This document shows positions 28,520-31,629 of a stretch of 32,000 nucleotides of DNA, piece after piece. The notes under the pieces were generated by a model, which worked only from the letters and a program-made list of their open reading frames with translations, did no database searches and was not told where the DNA came from. Made by a program: the position numbers and the translations under genes. This DNA is from an uncultured archaeon (GTDB taxonomy: Archaea > Asgardarchaeota > Thorarchaeia > Thorarchaeales > Thorarchaeaceae): assembly GCA_964354495.1 (NCBI GenBank), contig CAYHAA010000021.1, positions 8,418 to 40,417 of the forward strand. Reading direction: 5' to 3'. How positions within the stretch are numbered: the first letter of the stretch is position 1; each line of letters opens with the position of its first letter.

Positions 28520-29020
28520 TCACTTCCTCAATGGTCCTTCTAGCTGGGCATCCCATTGTCCTCCGCGGACGTCACTCTGGAACTCCTTTGCGGTCTTTCC
28601 CTCGATTGTGACGCCCATCTGACCGCACGTTCCAGCTATTGTCAGGACTGCAGCCTTCATGGTCTGTGCTGAGAGATCATTTGCTTTTCCCTTTGCGATA
28701 TTCTTCAACTGATCTACGGTGAGATTGCCTATGATTGTGGCTTTTGGTGCTCCAGAGCCTTTTGGTGCTCCTACCTCTTTCAGTATCAATGCACTGGTTG
28801 GAGGTGTGCCCACTTCAATCTTAAAGCTCTTATCGTTCGGGTTGACTGTAATTTTCACAGGAACCTTCAATCCCGCAAAGGGCTGTGTGACCTCATTGAT
28901 TTTGGTCACGACTTGGAAGATATTGACACCTGTAGGTCCAAGAGCTGGACCTATGGGTGGTCCTCCGCTGGCCTTCCCACCTTCAACCATAGCTTCAACA
29001 GTAATTGGTTTTTCACTCAA
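28520..29020 (-). CDS. rpl11: 50S ribosomal protein uL11
   Basis: VEGGKASGGPPIGPALGPTGVN, VGTPPTSALI and GTCGQMGVTIEG. Start probably TTG 29020 (or GTG 29029), not 29062. Confidence 0.95.
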   Translation of the reverse strand: MSEKPITVEAMVEGGKASGGPPIGPALGPTGVNIFQVVTKINEVTQPFAGLKVPVKITVNPNDKSFKIEVGTPPTSALILKEVGAPKGSGAPKATIIGNLTVDQLKNIAKGKANDLSAQTMKAAVLTIAGTCGQMGVTIEGKTAKEFQSDVRGGQWDAQLEGPLRK

Positions 29021-29037
29021 TTCATTCACGACTCCTG

Positions 29038-29125
29038 ATGCAGTGCACTCGGGCGTACGCAACGCTTCCGATGGTATCGACCTGCAGGACAGAAGTCTTG
29101 CTATATCCAGTCAGGTCTACTGCAT
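29038..29125 (-). promoter_or_regulatory. Structured 5' leader of the rpl11-rpl1-rplP0-rpl12 operon
   Basis: ATGCAGT/ACTGCAT (29119-29125 with 29038-29044) and GACCTG/CAGGTC stems, downstream of a TATTAAG box near 29160 and directly abutting the SD. Confidence 0.45.
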
Positions 29126-29317: not shown

Positions 29318-30016
29318 CTACTCGTCATCAGGTGGATGTGCCCAGAAAGAGTCCTCATCATCGAACTCATCAAAGGATGATGCTTTGACTTCCTCACCCT
29401 CTGCAGTAGTCACCTTTGGTGCTTCCTGCTTCACTGCTCTCTCAACAATCTTGGCAAAGTCTGCGTGAACCCTTACAGGTATCGTGTAAGGGCTATCTAG
29501 GAGCTCGAGGATGAGCTCTTCCTTCCCCGCATCTACACGTTGGACCTTTGCACGTTCTCCCTTGAATGGACCGGAGATGATCTCGACAACGTCGCCCTCG
29601 GAAATACCTTCTGCTGCTGGTGGCGGTGCCAAGAACCTGTCAATCTCGCTCAGGCTGACCTTTCCTCCGACCCGGCCACGTACATGGGGGACTCCGGAGA
29701 TAGCAATCTCGACATCCCTGAACTCTGTAGTTTCGATGAAGACGTAACCACGTAGGGTTTCAGGAACCAGTATTGCCTTGATTCTTCCAAGTAGTTGATT
29801 CTTCGAGATGAGTTTGGGCTCGCCATCCCTCTTCTCTCTCTTTTTGCAGCCCTTCATATGCTGCTTGGTCGCCTTCTCCGAGGAGAACTCCTCAGAGCAA
29901 AACGGACACCTCCAAACATCTCCTTCTCCAATCACAGCTGTTGTGATCAGATCTGTCACACTTCGTTCTTGTCCAATCGTTGTTCTCACGGCATAGATGC
30001 TTGTGGAGCTTTCCAT
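29318..30016 (-). CDS. spt5: Transcription elongation factor Spt5/NusG with a zinc-finger insertion and an acidic tail
   Basis: NGN motifs IYAVRTTIGQE and LRGYVFIE, KOW motif EGDVVEIISGPFKGERAKV. Lies between secE and rpl11. Confidence 0.95.
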   Translation of the reverse strand: MESSTSIYAVRTTIGQERSVTDLITTAVIGEGDVWRCPFCSEEFSSEKATKQHMKGCKKREKRDGEPKLISKNQLLGRIKAILVPETLRGYVFIETTEFRDVEIAISGVPHVRGRVGGKVSLSEIDRFLAPPPAAEGISEGDVVEIISGPFKGERAKVQRVDAGKEELILELLDSPYTIPVRVHADFAKIVERAVKQEAPKVTTAEGEEVKASSFDEFDDEDSFWAHPPDDE

Positions 30017-30127: not shown

Positions 30128-30316
30128 TTATGTGGCTGTTGTGCCCCATGTGGCTGTGACCACTGTCATGATGACTTGGATTATGAAACTCACAATGCCC
30201 ACAAGGAACATTGCAAGGAGACTAATCTTTGTACTAGTCCAGAGTTCTGACCGAGATGGCTTTGTAGCCAATTTCAGAATCCTTCTGCTGTCGTTAATGA
30301 AGGAACTAATACCCAT
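30128..30316 (-). CDS. secE: Protein translocase subunit SecE/Sec61-gamma
   Basis: RRILKLATKPSRSEL followed by one TM helix; conserved position upstream of spt5. Confidence 0.92.
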   Translation of the reverse strand: MGISSFINDSRRILKLATKPSRSELWTSTKISLLAMFLVGIVSFIIQVIMTVVTATWGTTAT

Positions 30317-30414: not shown

Positions 30415-31542
30415 CTATGTCAACCGGGGAACGCCCAGATCGGTCCTGAGATCGTCCACTAGGGGAGCGAAAGGTTCAGCCTTGTCGAAGACGTAGGGTG
30501 AATTGACCCCTGACGCTATTATTGTGACACGAAGGCGGCCTTCGAGCTCCGGCATGATCAACGCTCCGTAGATTATCTCCGCCCCTGGATTCACCTGTTC
30601 AGTCACTAGTTCGATTACACGCTTCACCTCGAGAAGCTGCAGGTCCGCGTTACCGCTGACATTTACAAGGAGATTGCGTGCATTCTCAATCGACACATCA
30701 ATCAGTGGATTGCGCAGGGCATTGACTACTGCATCTTCTGCTCTATTCTCACCATCTGCCTCGCCGAGTGCAATGATTGACACTCCACCATTCTTCATTG
30801 TGGTTCTCACGTCAGCAAAGTCCAAGTTCACAAGGCCTGGCTTTGAGATTAGCTCTGCTATTCCCTTCACAGCCCTGACAAGGACTTCATCAGCAACCAT
30901 GAACGCCTCCGGCAGTGAGAGATCAGGAGCTATCTCCAGGAGTTTCTCATTTGGTATTGCGATAAGAGTATCAACATGCTCCATCAAGGCATTGAGTCCT
31001 CGAGTGGCGTTCTTCTTTCTGGTTGCGCCCTCGACCTCAAATGGCAGGCATACTATGGCCACTGTAAGAGCGCCATTCTCCTTTGCTGCCTTAGCTATAT
31101 GCGCCGCTGCACCGGTTCCTGTTCCACCACCCATCCCGGCTGTTATGAAGACGAGGTCTCCCCTTACCGTGTCTTTAATGCTGTCATATGTTTCAATGGC
31201 TGCGGCCTCTCCAATGTCCGGATTATTTCCAGCACCAAGTCCTCCGCAGGTCTCCCTACCCAAGAGTAGCTTGTGATGAGAGTTACAGAAGTACAGATCC
31301 TGTGCATCCGTATTCACTGCGAGAGTCTCTGCACCTTCGACGCCCACTTCCATGAGGCGGGTGATTGCATTGTTTCCCGCGCCACCAACGCCTACGACAA
31401 GGATTCTGGCATTGACAGACTCGAGCAGTTCTTCGAGTTCTTCATCGGTGGTAGCTGATTTGGGTACATTCTTTCCGCGTTTCATCTTCGGGTCGCGTCT
31501 TCCGCTTGTTGAACTAAGGGCTTCTTCTAATAATGGATGCAT
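30415..31542 (-). CDS. ftsZ: Cell division protein FtsZ (FtsZ1 type)
   Basis: VGVGGAGNNA, AVNTDAQDL, tubulin signature GMGGGTGTG, NLDFADV, and an archaeal N-terminal extension with DEEL. Start ATG 31542 (GTG 31551 is an alternative). Confidence 0.97.
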   Translation of the reverse strand: MHPLLEEALSSTSGRRDPKMKRGKNVPKSATTDEELEELLESVNARILVVGVGGAGNNAITRLMEVGVEGAETLAVNTDAQDLYFCNSHHKLLLGRETCGGLGAGNNPDIGEAAAIETYDSIKDTVRGDLVFITAGMGGGTGTGAAAHIAKAAKENGALTVAIVCLPFEVEGATRKKNATRGLNALMEHVDTLIAIPNEKLLEIAPDLSLPEAFMVADEVLVRAVKGIAELISKPGLVNLDFADVRTTMKNGGVSIIALGEADGENRAEDAVVNALRNPLIDVSIENARNLLVNVSGNADLQLLEVKRVIELVTEQVNPGAEIIYGALIMPELEGRLRVTIIASGVNSPYVFDKAEPFAPLVDDLRTDLGVPRLT

Positions 31543-31629
31543 ATTGACCACTCACATCTGACTACGAGTGTTATTATCCACGTATTATTTCAAGAAAAAG
31601 TAGAATACTACCCTGATAATACAAGGCGA

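What the first reader, a model, noticed from the sequence alone, without database searches (positions are those of the whole stretch)
29792..29929. Classical-spacing C2HC zinc finger inserted into the Spt5 NGN domain
Between the first helix and second strand of the NGN domain is a ~45 aa insertion containing C-P-F-C-x12-H-x3-C (29846-29908) with the conserved aromatic (SEEF), followed by a basic patch (KKREKR). Typical archaeal Spt5 is only NGN plus one KOW, and zinc is supplied by the partner Spt4 (established). A built-in nucleic-acid-binding finger on a universally conserved elongation factor could be a lineage-specific innovation affecting non-template DNA or RNA contacts or Spt4 binding (inference).
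Basis: partly seen in the sequence, partly recalled or inferred. Interest (0 to 1): 0.72.

Follow-up and report, generated by a model that had tools for sequence, protein, structure and literature searches.

The report
Zinc finger inside Thorarchaeal Spt5 factor
The only Spt5 transcription elongation factor of this Thorarchaeota genome carries a conserved, eukaryote-style zinc finger inserted in its polymerase-binding domain; every genus of the family has it, no other Asgard archaeon searched does, and its job is unknown.

Summary
Window 29318-30016 (-) encodes the genome's only Spt5 (232 aa). About 44 residues (29-72) are inserted between NGN helix a1 and strand b2. They hold W-x-C-P-x-C-x3-F-x8-H-x3-C, a variable Lys-rich linker and a conserved strand.

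The insert is found in 84 of 85 genomes and all 16 genera of the GTDB family. It is missing from the one sister-family genome searched and from 314 other Asgard genomes. The ligands are almost invariant; one genus has Glu for the last Cys. AlphaFold2 predicts a beta-beta-alpha fold at pLDDT 82-90.

Spt4 is retained. In this family alone, among those compared, it carries an 8-residue loop insertion that a predicted complex places beside the stem of the Spt5 insert.

The finger is neutral to acidic, its helix positions vary, and it enters b2 at the end opposite the residue that touches upstream DNA in Pol II. I therefore favour a Zn-stabilised protein-contact or bracing surface next to Spt4 over a nucleic-acid reader. 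This is inference.

I found no published description. First-stage readers of this scan noted the same insert in other Thorarchaeota genomes.

In passing: rpoA' of this genome and of two other species in the family is interrupted by short inserts that break the frame or carry in-frame stops. These are candidate mRNA introns.

The parts
29318..30016 (-). spt5 gene (232 aa plus stop); the only Spt5/NGN gene in the genome
   Evidence: TIGR00405 146 bits (cut-off 69.95); PF03439 62.8 bits; PF00467 32.4 bits. A single NGN match in the whole genome. Model NGN against 3lpe_A: Z 15.3, rmsd 1.3 A over 84 residues.
29933..30016 (-). NGN strand b1 and helix a1 (aa 1-28)
   Evidence: Aligns to residues 4-24 of P. 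furiosus and M. jannaschii Spt5. AF2 DSSP: E6-12, H17-30.
29801..29932 (-). lineage-specific insertion (aa 29-72)
   Evidence: Absent from the sister-family Spt5 L047 and from solved archaeal Spt5. Present in 84/85 family genomes. pN 0.12 against saturated pS 0.78 within the genus.
29846..29917 (-). classical beta-beta-alpha C2HC zinc finger core (aa 34-57; ligands C37, C40, H53, C57; core W35, F44, T50)
   Evidence: The motif is conserved. AF2 gives strands 34-36 and 43-44 and helix 47-56 at pLDDT 82-90. Sub-threshold Pfam C2H2 hits at E 5e-4. Matches to PDB classical fingers.
29822..29845 (-). Lys-rich variable linker (aa 58-65, KKREKRDG)
   Evidence: Linker charge (aa 58-72) is positive in 14 of 16 genera (+1 to +7), 0 in g26 and -3 in g28. 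Its length varies.
29801..29821 (-). conserved E-P-K-L-[IV]-S-x segment, predicted extra strand 68-71 (aa 66-72)
   Evidence: P67 and S71 are invariant in the 16 genus representatives. AF2 strand E68-71, pLDDT 81-84.
29627..29800 (-). rest of the NGN domain (aa 73-130): b2 79-83 (predicted Spt4-pairing edge), R89, b3 with E95, R113, a3
   Evidence: R89 and R113 correspond to human K222 and R246 by an offset of +133 and an equal spacing of 24 residues (PMC10482750).
29438..29605 (-). KOW domain (aa 138-193)
   Evidence: PF00467 match at 140-166. Aligns to archaeal Spt5 KOW.
29321..29437 (-). acidic C-terminal tail (aa 194-232, net charge -10) ending in D-S-F-W-A-H (aa 222-227, nt 29336-29353)
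   Evidence: F224 and W225 are invariant in 22 sequences. The tail is absent in the sister family. pLDDT is below 50.
30128..30316 (-). secE upstream of spt5 (conserved ftsZ-secE-spt5-L11-L1 string)
   Evidence: PF00584 at E 7e-8. L11 lies at 28520-29062.

Best explanation
Shown: the housekeeping Spt5 of the family Thorarchaeaceae gained, in the family's stem lineage, a roughly 44-residue module in the a1-b2 loop of its NGN domain. The module is a classical beta-beta-alpha finger with C2HC ligands, followed by a variable Lys-rich linker and a conserved short strand. It has been kept under purifying selection in all 16 genera. Spt4 is retained, and in the same family it carries an 8-residue insertion in the loop before its helix a4. 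A predicted heterodimer keeps the canonical b2-edge and a1/a3 interface. That model puts the first residues of the Spt4 loop against Spt5 residues 76-77, which form the C-terminal stem of the Spt5 insert. Inferred: the two insertions arose together. They build a new Zn-stabilised surface at the end of the NGN-Spt4 sheet that points away from the upstream-DNA contact (R89, counterpart of human K222). This surface most likely braces the Spt4/5 heterodimer, serves as a docking site for another protein on the elongation complex, or both. Sequence-specific reading of DNA or RNA is less likely. The Lys-rich linker may make loose electrostatic contacts with nucleic acid or with the protein's own acidic tail.
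For: Gene identity and single copy. Distribution: 84/85 family genomes in 16/16 genera; the one sister-family genome searched and 314 other Asgard genomes show only the flanks, lying next to each other. Among 1.84 billion cluster representatives, only two of the 150 best hits listed (P0022 and the truncated P0122) cover the insert. Ligand and core conservation. Selection: pN 0.12 against saturated pS 0.78. Fold: beta-beta-alpha at pLDDT 82-90. Spt4 is kept in 80/86 genomes, all 16 genera and 23/23 high-quality genomes. The Spt4 loop insertion is in all 15 aligned family sequences and absent in the sister family and 4 other Asgard. Pfam match length is 195-201 nt in the family, against 174-189 nt in all but one of the 150 highest-scoring matches listed, all from outside the family. 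Predicted complex: ipSAE 0.67 against a best control of 0.02. That mark was reached by 58 of 80 solved complexes and 2 of 110 mismatched pairs. The runs agree in at least 84% of contacts and the partner's pLDDT is at least 83. My own alignments were used and Zn rode along, so the counts hold only roughly, and like complexes are solved, so the pass may come from memory. Interface: Spt5 5, 7, 17-18, 21, 25, 28-29, 76-77, 79-86, 95, 122, 125-126, 128-130; Spt4 29-38, 44, 47-51, 53-54, 64-65. This agrees with M. jannaschii Spt4/5, where the sheets meet edge to edge, Spt4 a4 lies against NGN a1 and a3, and Ser39 contacts Glu46 (PMC2896526). The finger is neutral to acidic with variable helix positions and conserved E31, D33 and E42. 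Human K222 (upstream DNA) and R246 (non-template strand) map to R89 and R113 (offset; PMC10482750).
Against: No residue of the finger proper (34-57) is named in the confident interface of the predicted complex. No partner protein has been identified. The co-occurrence of the two insertions is a single evolutionary event, so it carries little statistical weight. The DNA-distal placement rests on strand topology and on a mapping to human Spt5, not on coordinates of an RNAP complex. Spt4, NGN and KOW line the DNA-exit path in Pol II (PMC6150629), so a tethered finger with a Lys-rich linker could still reach DNA. One genus (3 species) has Glu in place of the fourth ligand. Zinc binding itself is untested.
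Confidence: 0.42

Rival explanations
1. Nucleic-acid contact module. The finger together with the Lys-rich linker reaches the upstream duplex, the non-template strand or the nascent RNA. It would extend the open archaeal DNA-exit path, much as the eukaryote-specific KOW1 insertion helps close the tunnel in Pol II.
For: The linker is net positive in 14 of 16 genera, up to +7. In Pol II, Spt4, NGN and KOW1 surround upstream DNA, and the archaeal tunnel is expected to be incomplete (PMC6150629). The finger's best sequence matches are DNA- or RNA-binding C2H2 fingers and zf-C2H2_jaz. The only other C2HC finger of this spacing in the genome sits on a Zc3h12a-like NYN RNase.
Against: The finger is neutral to acidic (median -1, down to -5). 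Helix positions -1, +2, +3 and +6 are variable and often acidic. E31, D33 and E42 are conserved. The linker is neutral in g26 and acidic in g28. The insert enters b2 at the end opposite R89, the counterpart of the upstream-DNA contact.
Confidence: 0.25
2. Structural accretion only. The finger is a self-folding Zn knot that was tolerated in a permissive loop. It now stabilises the NGN fold or the Spt4 interface and has no partner or ligand of its own.
For: The a1-b2 loop is an insertion hot spot. Unrelated inserts of 30 to about 160 residues sit there in Heimdallarchaeota, Thermoproteota and other archaeal Spt5. The surface residues of the helix vary. One genus lost the fourth Cys.
Against: The insert is retained in every genus, with W35, P38, F44, H53, P67 and S71 invariant and conserved acidic surface residues. 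Its pN is only about 2.6 to 2.8 times that of the NGN core. Spt4 shows a co-occurring change.
Confidence: 0.22
3. Artefact: a mis-assembly, a wrong frame or a chance motif.
For: None found.
Against: The same insert occurs in 84 genomes and in hundreds of independently assembled metagenome proteins. The frame is open and the protein aligns along its full length.
Confidence: 0.01

Closest known systems
Archaeal Spt5 (TIGR00405; M. jannaschii and P. furiosus Spt4/5, PDB 3LPE, 3P8B, 3QQC, 8OKI)
   Same: NGN plus one KOW. secE-spt5-L11 synteny. A single housekeeping copy. The conserved Glu (E95) and the b2 edge for Spt4. NGN core superposes at rmsd 1.3 A. The clamp coiled-coil target in Rpo1N is nearly identical to that of the sister family.
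   Different: A 44-residue finger-containing insert in the a1-b2 loop and a 39-residue acidic tail ending in DSFW. The solved proteins have a loop of about 8 residues here and no tail.
Classical C2H2/C2HC beta-beta-alpha zinc fingers (Pfam zf-C2H2_4, zf-C2H2_jaz; C2HC variants such as the FOG-type and MYST/MOZ fingers, PDB 1M36)
   Same: The full consensus aromatic-x-C-x2-C-x3-F-x5-psi-x2-H-x3-C. A predicted beta-beta-alpha fold. Cys as last ligand, as in the protein-binding FOG and MYST fingers (that comparison is from my own knowledge).
   Different: A single finger embedded inside another domain of a prokaryotic core transcription factor. Scores lie below the Pfam gathering cut-offs. There is no conserved base-reading helix. 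Homology to any particular eukaryotic finger family is not shown.
Bacterial NusG with an extra domain inside the NGN (Aquifex aeolicus 1M1H/1NPP, Thermotoga maritima 2XHC)
   Same: A lineage-specific domain nested in the NGN of the universal elongation factor, with the core NGN fold preserved (Z 11-12.6).
   Different: The inserted fold is different and much larger, with no zinc. It occurs in bacteria, which have no Spt4. Whether the insertion site is the same was not tested here.
Other archaeal Spt5 with inserts in the same a1-b2 loop (Heimdallarchaeota P0124; Thermoproteota P0177/P0185; P0146, P0152, P0158, P0249)
   Same: The same permissive loop, with lineage-specific gain.
   Different: The inserts are unrelated in sequence: helical, KOW-like, or up to about 160 residues. 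P0185 has its own Cys/His pattern. None matches the Thorarchaeal finger.
Spt4 zinc ribbon and Elf1: zinc modules that sit on the elongation complex in trans
   Same: Small Zn-stabilised modules next to the NGN domain on the cleft. Both are also encoded in this genome.
   Different: They are separate polypeptides with a four-Cys ribbon fold. Here the finger is in cis, has a C2HC beta-beta-alpha fold, and adds to Spt4 rather than replacing it.

Membership tests
Archaeal Spt5 (TIGR00405) | NGN domain | tested here: met
   PF03439 62.8 bits (cut-off 22.4), split by the insert. Model against 3lpe_A: Z 15.3, rmsd 1.3 A, 84/84 residues.
Archaeal Spt5 (TIGR00405) | A single C-terminal KOW domain and a whole-protein equivalog score | tested here: met
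   PF00467 32.4 bits (cut-off 22.3). TIGR00405 146 bits (cut-off 69.95).
Archaeal Spt5 (TIGR00405) | Heterodimer with Spt4 through the b2 edge and the conserved Glu | tested here: inconclusive
   Prediction only: ipSAE 0.67 against a best control of 0.02. The mark was reached by 58/80 solved complexes and 2/110 mismatched pairs. Run agreement is at least 84% and partner pLDDT at least 83. The pass may come from memory of solved Spt4/5. Spt4 is present in the genome.
Archaeal Spt5 (TIGR00405) | Binds the RNAP clamp coiled coil and stimulates elongation | not testable with these tools
   The coiled-coil sequence of Rpo1N is conserved between the family and its sister family. No functional test was possible.
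Classical C2H2-type (beta-beta-alpha) zinc finger | Consensus aromatic-x-C-x2-4-C-x3-F-x5-psi-x2-H-x3-5-(H/C) | tested here: met
   W35-x-C37-x2-C40-x3-F44-x5-T50-x2-H53-x3-C57. Conserved in 164 unique sequences.
Classical C2H2-type (beta-beta-alpha) zinc finger | Beta-hairpin plus helix fold | tested here: met
   AF2 with a 93-row alignment: strands 34-36 and 43-44, helix 47-56, block pLDDT 82-90. This is a prediction, not a structure.
Classical C2H2-type (beta-beta-alpha) zinc finger | Score above a Pfam gathering cut-off | tested here: not met
   Best scores are zf-C2H2_jaz 20.7 bits (cut-off 22.6) and zf-C2H2_4 20.8 bits (cut-off 27). Whether a lone finger commonly falls short in this way was not tested. 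I therefore describe it as finger-type by motif and predicted fold, not as a proven member of a Pfam family.
Classical C2H2-type (beta-beta-alpha) zinc finger | Binds one zinc ion | not testable with these tools
   Needs metal analysis of the purified protein.
FOG/MYST-type C2HC protein-binding fingers | Cys as fourth ligand with H-x3-5-C spacing | tested here: met
   H53-x3-C57 in 15 of 16 genera, one of them with x4 spacing. Genus g19 has Glu.
FOG/MYST-type C2HC protein-binding fingers | Sequence homology to those families | tested here: inconclusive
   zf-MYST E 0.033 and MOZ finger 1m36 E 0.26. Too weak to decide.

The most novel reading that the evidence does not exclude
The Spt5 finger and the co-inserted Spt4 loop form a new docking platform on the Thorarchaeal elongation complex that recruits a lineage-specific co-transcriptional partner, for example a chromatin, RNA-processing or repair factor. 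Together with the acidic Trp-containing C-terminal tail, this would be an independent archaeal parallel to the way eukaryotic Spt5 acquired regulator-binding modules.
Probability: 0.2. Interest if true: 0.75.

Novelty: new variant of a known kind. Interest (0 to 1): 0.5.

Why it matters
Spt5/NusG is the only transcription factor conserved in all cellular life, and archaeal Spt5 is usually treated as a minimal NGN+KOW protein. Here an Asgard family has built a classical, eukaryote-style zinc finger into the NGN domain, and its Spt4 partner changed at the neighbouring position. This shows that the core elongation factor was remodelled by domain accretion within Asgard archaea. It gives a defined, deletable module (residues 29-72 of Spt5 and the 8-residue Spt4 loop) with which to test what extra surfaces on Spt4/5 do. 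It also adds a rare prokaryotic case of the beta-beta-alpha finger. If the module recruits a partner, it would be a simple model for how eukaryotic Spt5 became a recruitment hub.

Tried and rejected
1. The first AF2 run used only 22 close relatives and gave a poor model (mean pLDDT 61). I replaced it with a 93-row alignment.

2. The predicted complex names no residue of the finger proper (34-57) in its confident interface. This says nothing either way about a finger-Spt4 contact.

3. I looked for a donor or paralogue of the finger. In the genome itself there were only E 0.2-0.6 hits with the insert as query. One other C2HC finger turned up through Pfam. Across 400 Asgard genomes there were only weak hits (E 8e-4 or worse) in unrelated proteins, among them a 67-aa finger protein (L059) and a RadA-like protein (L058). 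No origin can be named.

4. The ESM Atlas feature search with residues 28-78 gave no usable hit.

5. dN/dS could not be estimated because synonymous sites are saturated (pS 0.69-0.89). Only pN and the pN/pS ratio are reported.

6. I searched the clamp core and coiled coil of Rpo1N for a third co-occurring indel and found none specific to the family.

7. The '1 TGA' flagged inside the Spt5 match of genus g23 is simply the stop codon after a shorter tail, not recoding.

8. The ribosomal P1 stalk tail encoded in the window ends ...[13 protein letters not shown]. It does not share the Spt5 DSFW motif, so I dropped the idea that the tail mimics the stalk.

9. For the rpoA' inserts, the RNA contigs of two metatranscriptomes do not cover the site, so splicing is untested. 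The fold energy is not better than that of shuffles (z 0.61).

10. Seven literature searches and the papers I read found no description of a finger in Spt5.

Full report
**Observation.** The minus-strand ORF at window 29318-30016 encodes 232 residues.
- It lies in the conserved string ftsZ (30415-31551), secE (30128-30316), spt5, L11 (28520-29062), L1 (27857-28513).
- It scores 146 bits on the NCBIfam Spt5 equivalog TIGR00405 (cut-off 69.95). It carries Pfam Spt5-NGN (62.8 bits) and KOW (32.4 bits).
- Against solved archaeal Spt5, residues 6-26 align to residues 4-24, and residue 79 aligns to residue 33 (P. furiosus) or 30 (M. jannaschii). About 44 residues are therefore extra between helix a1 and strand b2.
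W35, F44 and T50 sit at the aromatic and hydrophobic positions of the classical finger consensus.
- These are the only three cysteines in the protein.

**Organism and copy number.**
- Named database relatives are Candidatus Thorarchaeota MAG proteins.
- The window is contig 21 of a 3.3-Mb genome that is 97.7% complete.
- The genome has one NGN match only, one Spt4 gene next to rpoE' and S24e, and an Elf1.
- The finger-bearing protein is therefore the housekeeping Spt5, not a paralogue.

**Distribution.**
- With the whole protein as query, 84 of 85 other genomes of the same GTDB family match over residues 1 to about 228. This covers all 16 genera.
- The two exceptions are one 92%-complete genome with no match and one whose gene is split across contig ends.
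- The only genome of the sister family in the order has a 164-aa open frame that aligns without the insert and without the tail.
- With the first 100 residues as query against 400 Asgard genomes, full-length matches occur only in the family (84/85). Elsewhere only the flanks (3-28 and 78-97) match, and where both were found they lie a few codons apart.
- A profile search of 1.84 billion cluster representatives listed its 150 best hits. Only one full-length and one truncated representative cover the insert.
- The simplest reading is a single gain in the stem of the family.

**Conservation.**
- In 22 sequences spanning the 16 genera, W35, C37, P38, C40, F44, H53, P67, N73, L75, G77 and R78 are invariant. 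C57 is at least 90% conserved.
- In 164 unique sequences, CxxC and P are in 164, and W and F in 163. One further metagenome sequence that fell outside the motif search has Tyr for His.
- The fourth ligand is Cys in 163 of the 164 (one with x4 spacing); the exception is the g19 representative. All three g19 species, two of them checked separately, have Glu.
- Within the genus, synonymous sites are saturated (pS 0.69-0.84). Non-synonymous divergence is 0.12 in the insert, 0.04 in the NGN core, 0.03 in KOW and 0.28 in the tail.
- The insert is therefore under clear purifying selection, though looser than the core.

**Fold.**
- With a 93-row alignment, AlphaFold2 gives mean pLDDT 80.
- The insert has block pLDDT 82-90, with strands 34-36 and 43-44 and helix 47-56. 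That is a beta-beta-alpha finger. An extra strand follows at 68-71.
- The NGN core superposes on M. jannaschii Spt5 NGN with Z 15.3 and rmsd 1.3 A over all 84 residues, skipping the insert.
- Pfam C2H2 models hit the finger at E about 5e-4 but below their gathering cut-offs. The best PDB sequence matches are classical fingers.
- In this genome the Spt5 finger is the top match to zf-C2H2_4 and the only match to zf-C2H2_jaz.

**Spt4.**
- Spt4 is found in 80 of 86 family genomes, in all 16 genera and in 23 of 23 high-quality genomes. The finger therefore did not replace it.
- The family's Spt4 has an 8-residue insertion (consensus L-P-G-R-x-P-x-[ED], plus one more residue). It sits just before the D-P..S N-cap of helix a4.
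- It is present in all 15 aligned family sequences, including the deepest genus. It is absent from the sister family and from four other Asgard lineages.
- As a proxy, the Pfam Spt4 match spans 195-201 nt in the family. In all but one of the 150 highest-scoring matches listed, all from outside the family, it spans 174-189 nt.
- In M. jannaschii Spt4/5 the two sheets join edge to edge. Spt4 Ser39, the N-cap of a4, contacts Spt5 Glu46, and a4 packs on NGN a1 and a3 (PMC2896526). The Spt4 insertion is thus in the loop leading into the heart of the interface, and the Spt5 insertion follows a1 directly.

**Predicted complex.** I folded Spt5 1-135 with Spt4 and two Zn.
- The score was ipSAE 0.67 against a best control of 0.02.
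- That mark was reached by 58 of 80 solved complexes and 2 of 110 mismatched pairs.
- The runs agree in at least 84% of contacts, and the partner's pLDDT is at least 83.
- My own alignments and a riding ligand were used, so these counts hold only roughly. Spt4/5 complexes are solved, so the pass may reflect memory of them.
- The useful part is the contact list. Spt5 b2 (79-86) pairs antiparallel with Spt4 29-35. E95 meets Spt4 49-50. Residues on a1 (17-29) and a3 (122-130) touch a4.
- Spt4 residues 36-38, the start of its inserted loop, lie beside Spt5 76-77, the stem of the Spt5 insert.
- The finger proper is not named in the confident interface, which is not evidence either way.

**Where the insert points (inference).**
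- Human Spt5 K222 contacts the upstream duplex, and R246 faces the non-template strand (PMC10482750).
- The phmmer alignment to 5oik_Z has an offset of +133. The two residues are 24 apart, the same as Thor R89 and R113. They therefore map to the b2-b3 turn and to b4.
- The insert enters b2 at residue 79, the opposite end of that strand. The distance is about 20 A by strand geometry.
- This is the end where E95, the protein's N-terminus and the Spt4 loop insertion also lie.
- Both lineage-specific insertions therefore cluster at the DNA-distal end of the composite NGN-Spt4 sheet.
- Caveat: Spt4, NGN and KOW1 line the DNA-exit path in Pol II, and the archaeal tunnel is thought to be open (PMC6150629). 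A tethered module could still reach DNA.

**Chemistry of the finger.**
- Across the 16 genera the finger (34-57) has a net charge of -5 to +3 (median -1).
- E31, D33 and E42 are conserved.
- The helix positions that read bases in classical fingers are variable and often acidic.
- The linker is Lys-rich in most genera, up to +7. It is neutral in g26 and acidic in g28, and its length varies.
- This does not fit a conserved nucleic-acid-reading finger. It does fit a structural or protein-contact module with a loosely constrained charged tether.

**Context in other archaea.**
- The a1-b2 loop is an insertion hot spot.
- Heimdallarchaeota Spt5 (P0124) has a helical insert of about 60 residues there.
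- Thermoproteota Spt5 clusters (P0177, P0185, P0255) have inserts of roughly 50 to 120 residues, one with its own Cys/His pattern.
- Other metagenomic Spt5 carry a KOW-like segment (P0146) or about 160 residues (P0158, P0249).
- The Thorarchaeal case is one of several independent accretions. Among the 150 best hits listed, it is the only one with this finger.

**Literature.**
- Seven full-text searches, and my reading of the 2026 survey of elongation-factor domains, found no description of a zinc finger in Spt5. That survey scanned 218 Asgard proteomes with domain HMMs. The Asgard ribosomal-cluster paper and an archaeal transcription review also say nothing of it.
- Most subscription-journal papers are not held, so this is not proof of novelty.
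- First-stage readers of this scan noted the same insert in at least seven other Thorarchaeota genomes. No follow-up report was shown to me.

**Verdict.**
- The best-supported reading is a family-wide, Zn-stabilised module that arose together with a loop insertion in Spt4. Together they form a new surface beside the Spt4 interface at the DNA-distal end of the NGN domain. This surface probably serves bracing, protein docking or both (confidence about 0.4).
- A nucleic-acid contact through the Lys-rich linker remains possible (about 0.25), as does a purely structural accretion (about 0.2).
- It is a new variant of a known factor and of moderate interest.

**Side observations.**
- While looking for co-varying changes in the RNAP clamp, I found that rpoA' of this genome carries a 30-nt insert with two in-frame stops. 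Removing it restores the conserved ...YPIDSGIMD... sequence.
- The same insert, 29/30 identical, sits at the same site in one other species of the genus, whose flanks are only 85% identical. It is absent from 22 other species.
- Two independent metagenomes carry it as DNA without a single difference.
- A species of another genus has a 65-nt, frame-breaking insert inside the clamp coiled-coil codons (SHK|LIDII). It has a hairpin with the same ATTTC loop and is absent from a congener.
- These look like mRNA introns in an essential gene. Splicing is untested.

Noticed in passing
L113:1615-1644 (-) = G000:C3:191999-192028, outside the window: rpoA' (Rpo1N) of this genome is interrupted by a 30-nt insert with in-frame TAG and TAA between ...DEDGYPID and SGIMD. 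Exact removal restores the sequence of insert-free congeners. The same insert (29/30 identical) sits at the same site in G007, whose flanks are 85% identical, and is absent in 22 other species of the genus. DNA contigs of two independent metagenomes carry it with no differences. The minimum-energy fold is bulge-helix-bulge-like: a 5-bp exon-intron helix, 3-nt bulges on opposite strands and an inner hairpin. Its energy is not better than shuffles. It occurs once in the genome. It is a candidate mRNA intron in an essential gene; the RNA contigs did not cover the site.
   Followed up: partly
L106:2203-2267 (+) = G042:C1, genus g15: This is a second rpoA' interruption in another genus. A 65-nt, frame-breaking insert lies inside the codons of the clamp coiled coil (SHK|LIDIIRINQ), which is the Spt5 docking site. 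It has a long hairpin and a GGTG-ATTTC-CACC hairpin with the same loop as the 30-nt insert. The flanking exon sequences pair with each other. It is absent in congener G045. The recent preprint on Asgard tRNA introns does not mention mRNA introns.
   Followed up: partly
L051:1501-1701 (-) = G000:C36, Spt4 gene: The family's Spt4 has an 8-residue insertion before the N-cap of helix a4. It is absent in the sister family and in four other Asgard lineages. It co-occurs with the Spt5 finger, and the predicted complex places it next to the finger's stem.
   Followed up: yes
window 29321-29437 (-); motif at 29336-29353: The Spt5 acidic C-terminal tail (net -6 to -16 across genera) ends in an invariant D-S-F-W-[AS]-[HRK]. 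Twenty-six of 142 other archaeal Spt5 representatives also have acidic tails, up to about 150 residues. Several end in a similar Trp/Phe motif such as ...DDDW-A-K-F... or ...DVFSEFF (Heimdallarchaeota). This looks like a widespread short linear motif of unknown partner. The sister family lacks the long tail.
   Followed up: partly
P0124, P0146, P0152, P0158, P0177, P0185, P0249, P0255 (proteins): The a1-b2 loop of NGN is an insertion hot spot in other archaea. It holds a helical insert of about 60 aa in Heimdallarchaeota, inserts of roughly 50-120 aa in marine Thermoproteota clusters (193 and 93 members), a KOW-like segment, and inserts of about 160 aa. P0246 instead has two CxxC pairs N-terminal to the NGN.
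   Followed up: partly
L101:538-1032 (+) = G000:C46: This is the only other classical-spacing C2HC finger found in the genome (C-P-H-C-x12-H-x3-C). It sits at the N-terminus of a Zc3h12a-like NYN ribonuclease domain (PF11977, E 6e-11).
   Followed up: partly
L034, L064, L065 (Spt5 of genus g19: G049, G050, G051): All three species of one genus have Glu in place of the fourth zinc ligand (H-M-K-K-E). The rest of the finger is intact.
   Followed up: yes
L058 (G255:C7), L059 (G375:C322): These were weak hits to the finger elsewhere in Asgard genomes. One is a RadA/Rad51-like protein with an N-terminal C-x2-C...H finger-like segment. The other is a 67-aa protein made of one C2H2 finger plus a Lys-rich tail, with the same layout as the Spt5 insert and 41% identity over 40 aa at E 0.002.
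   Followed up: no
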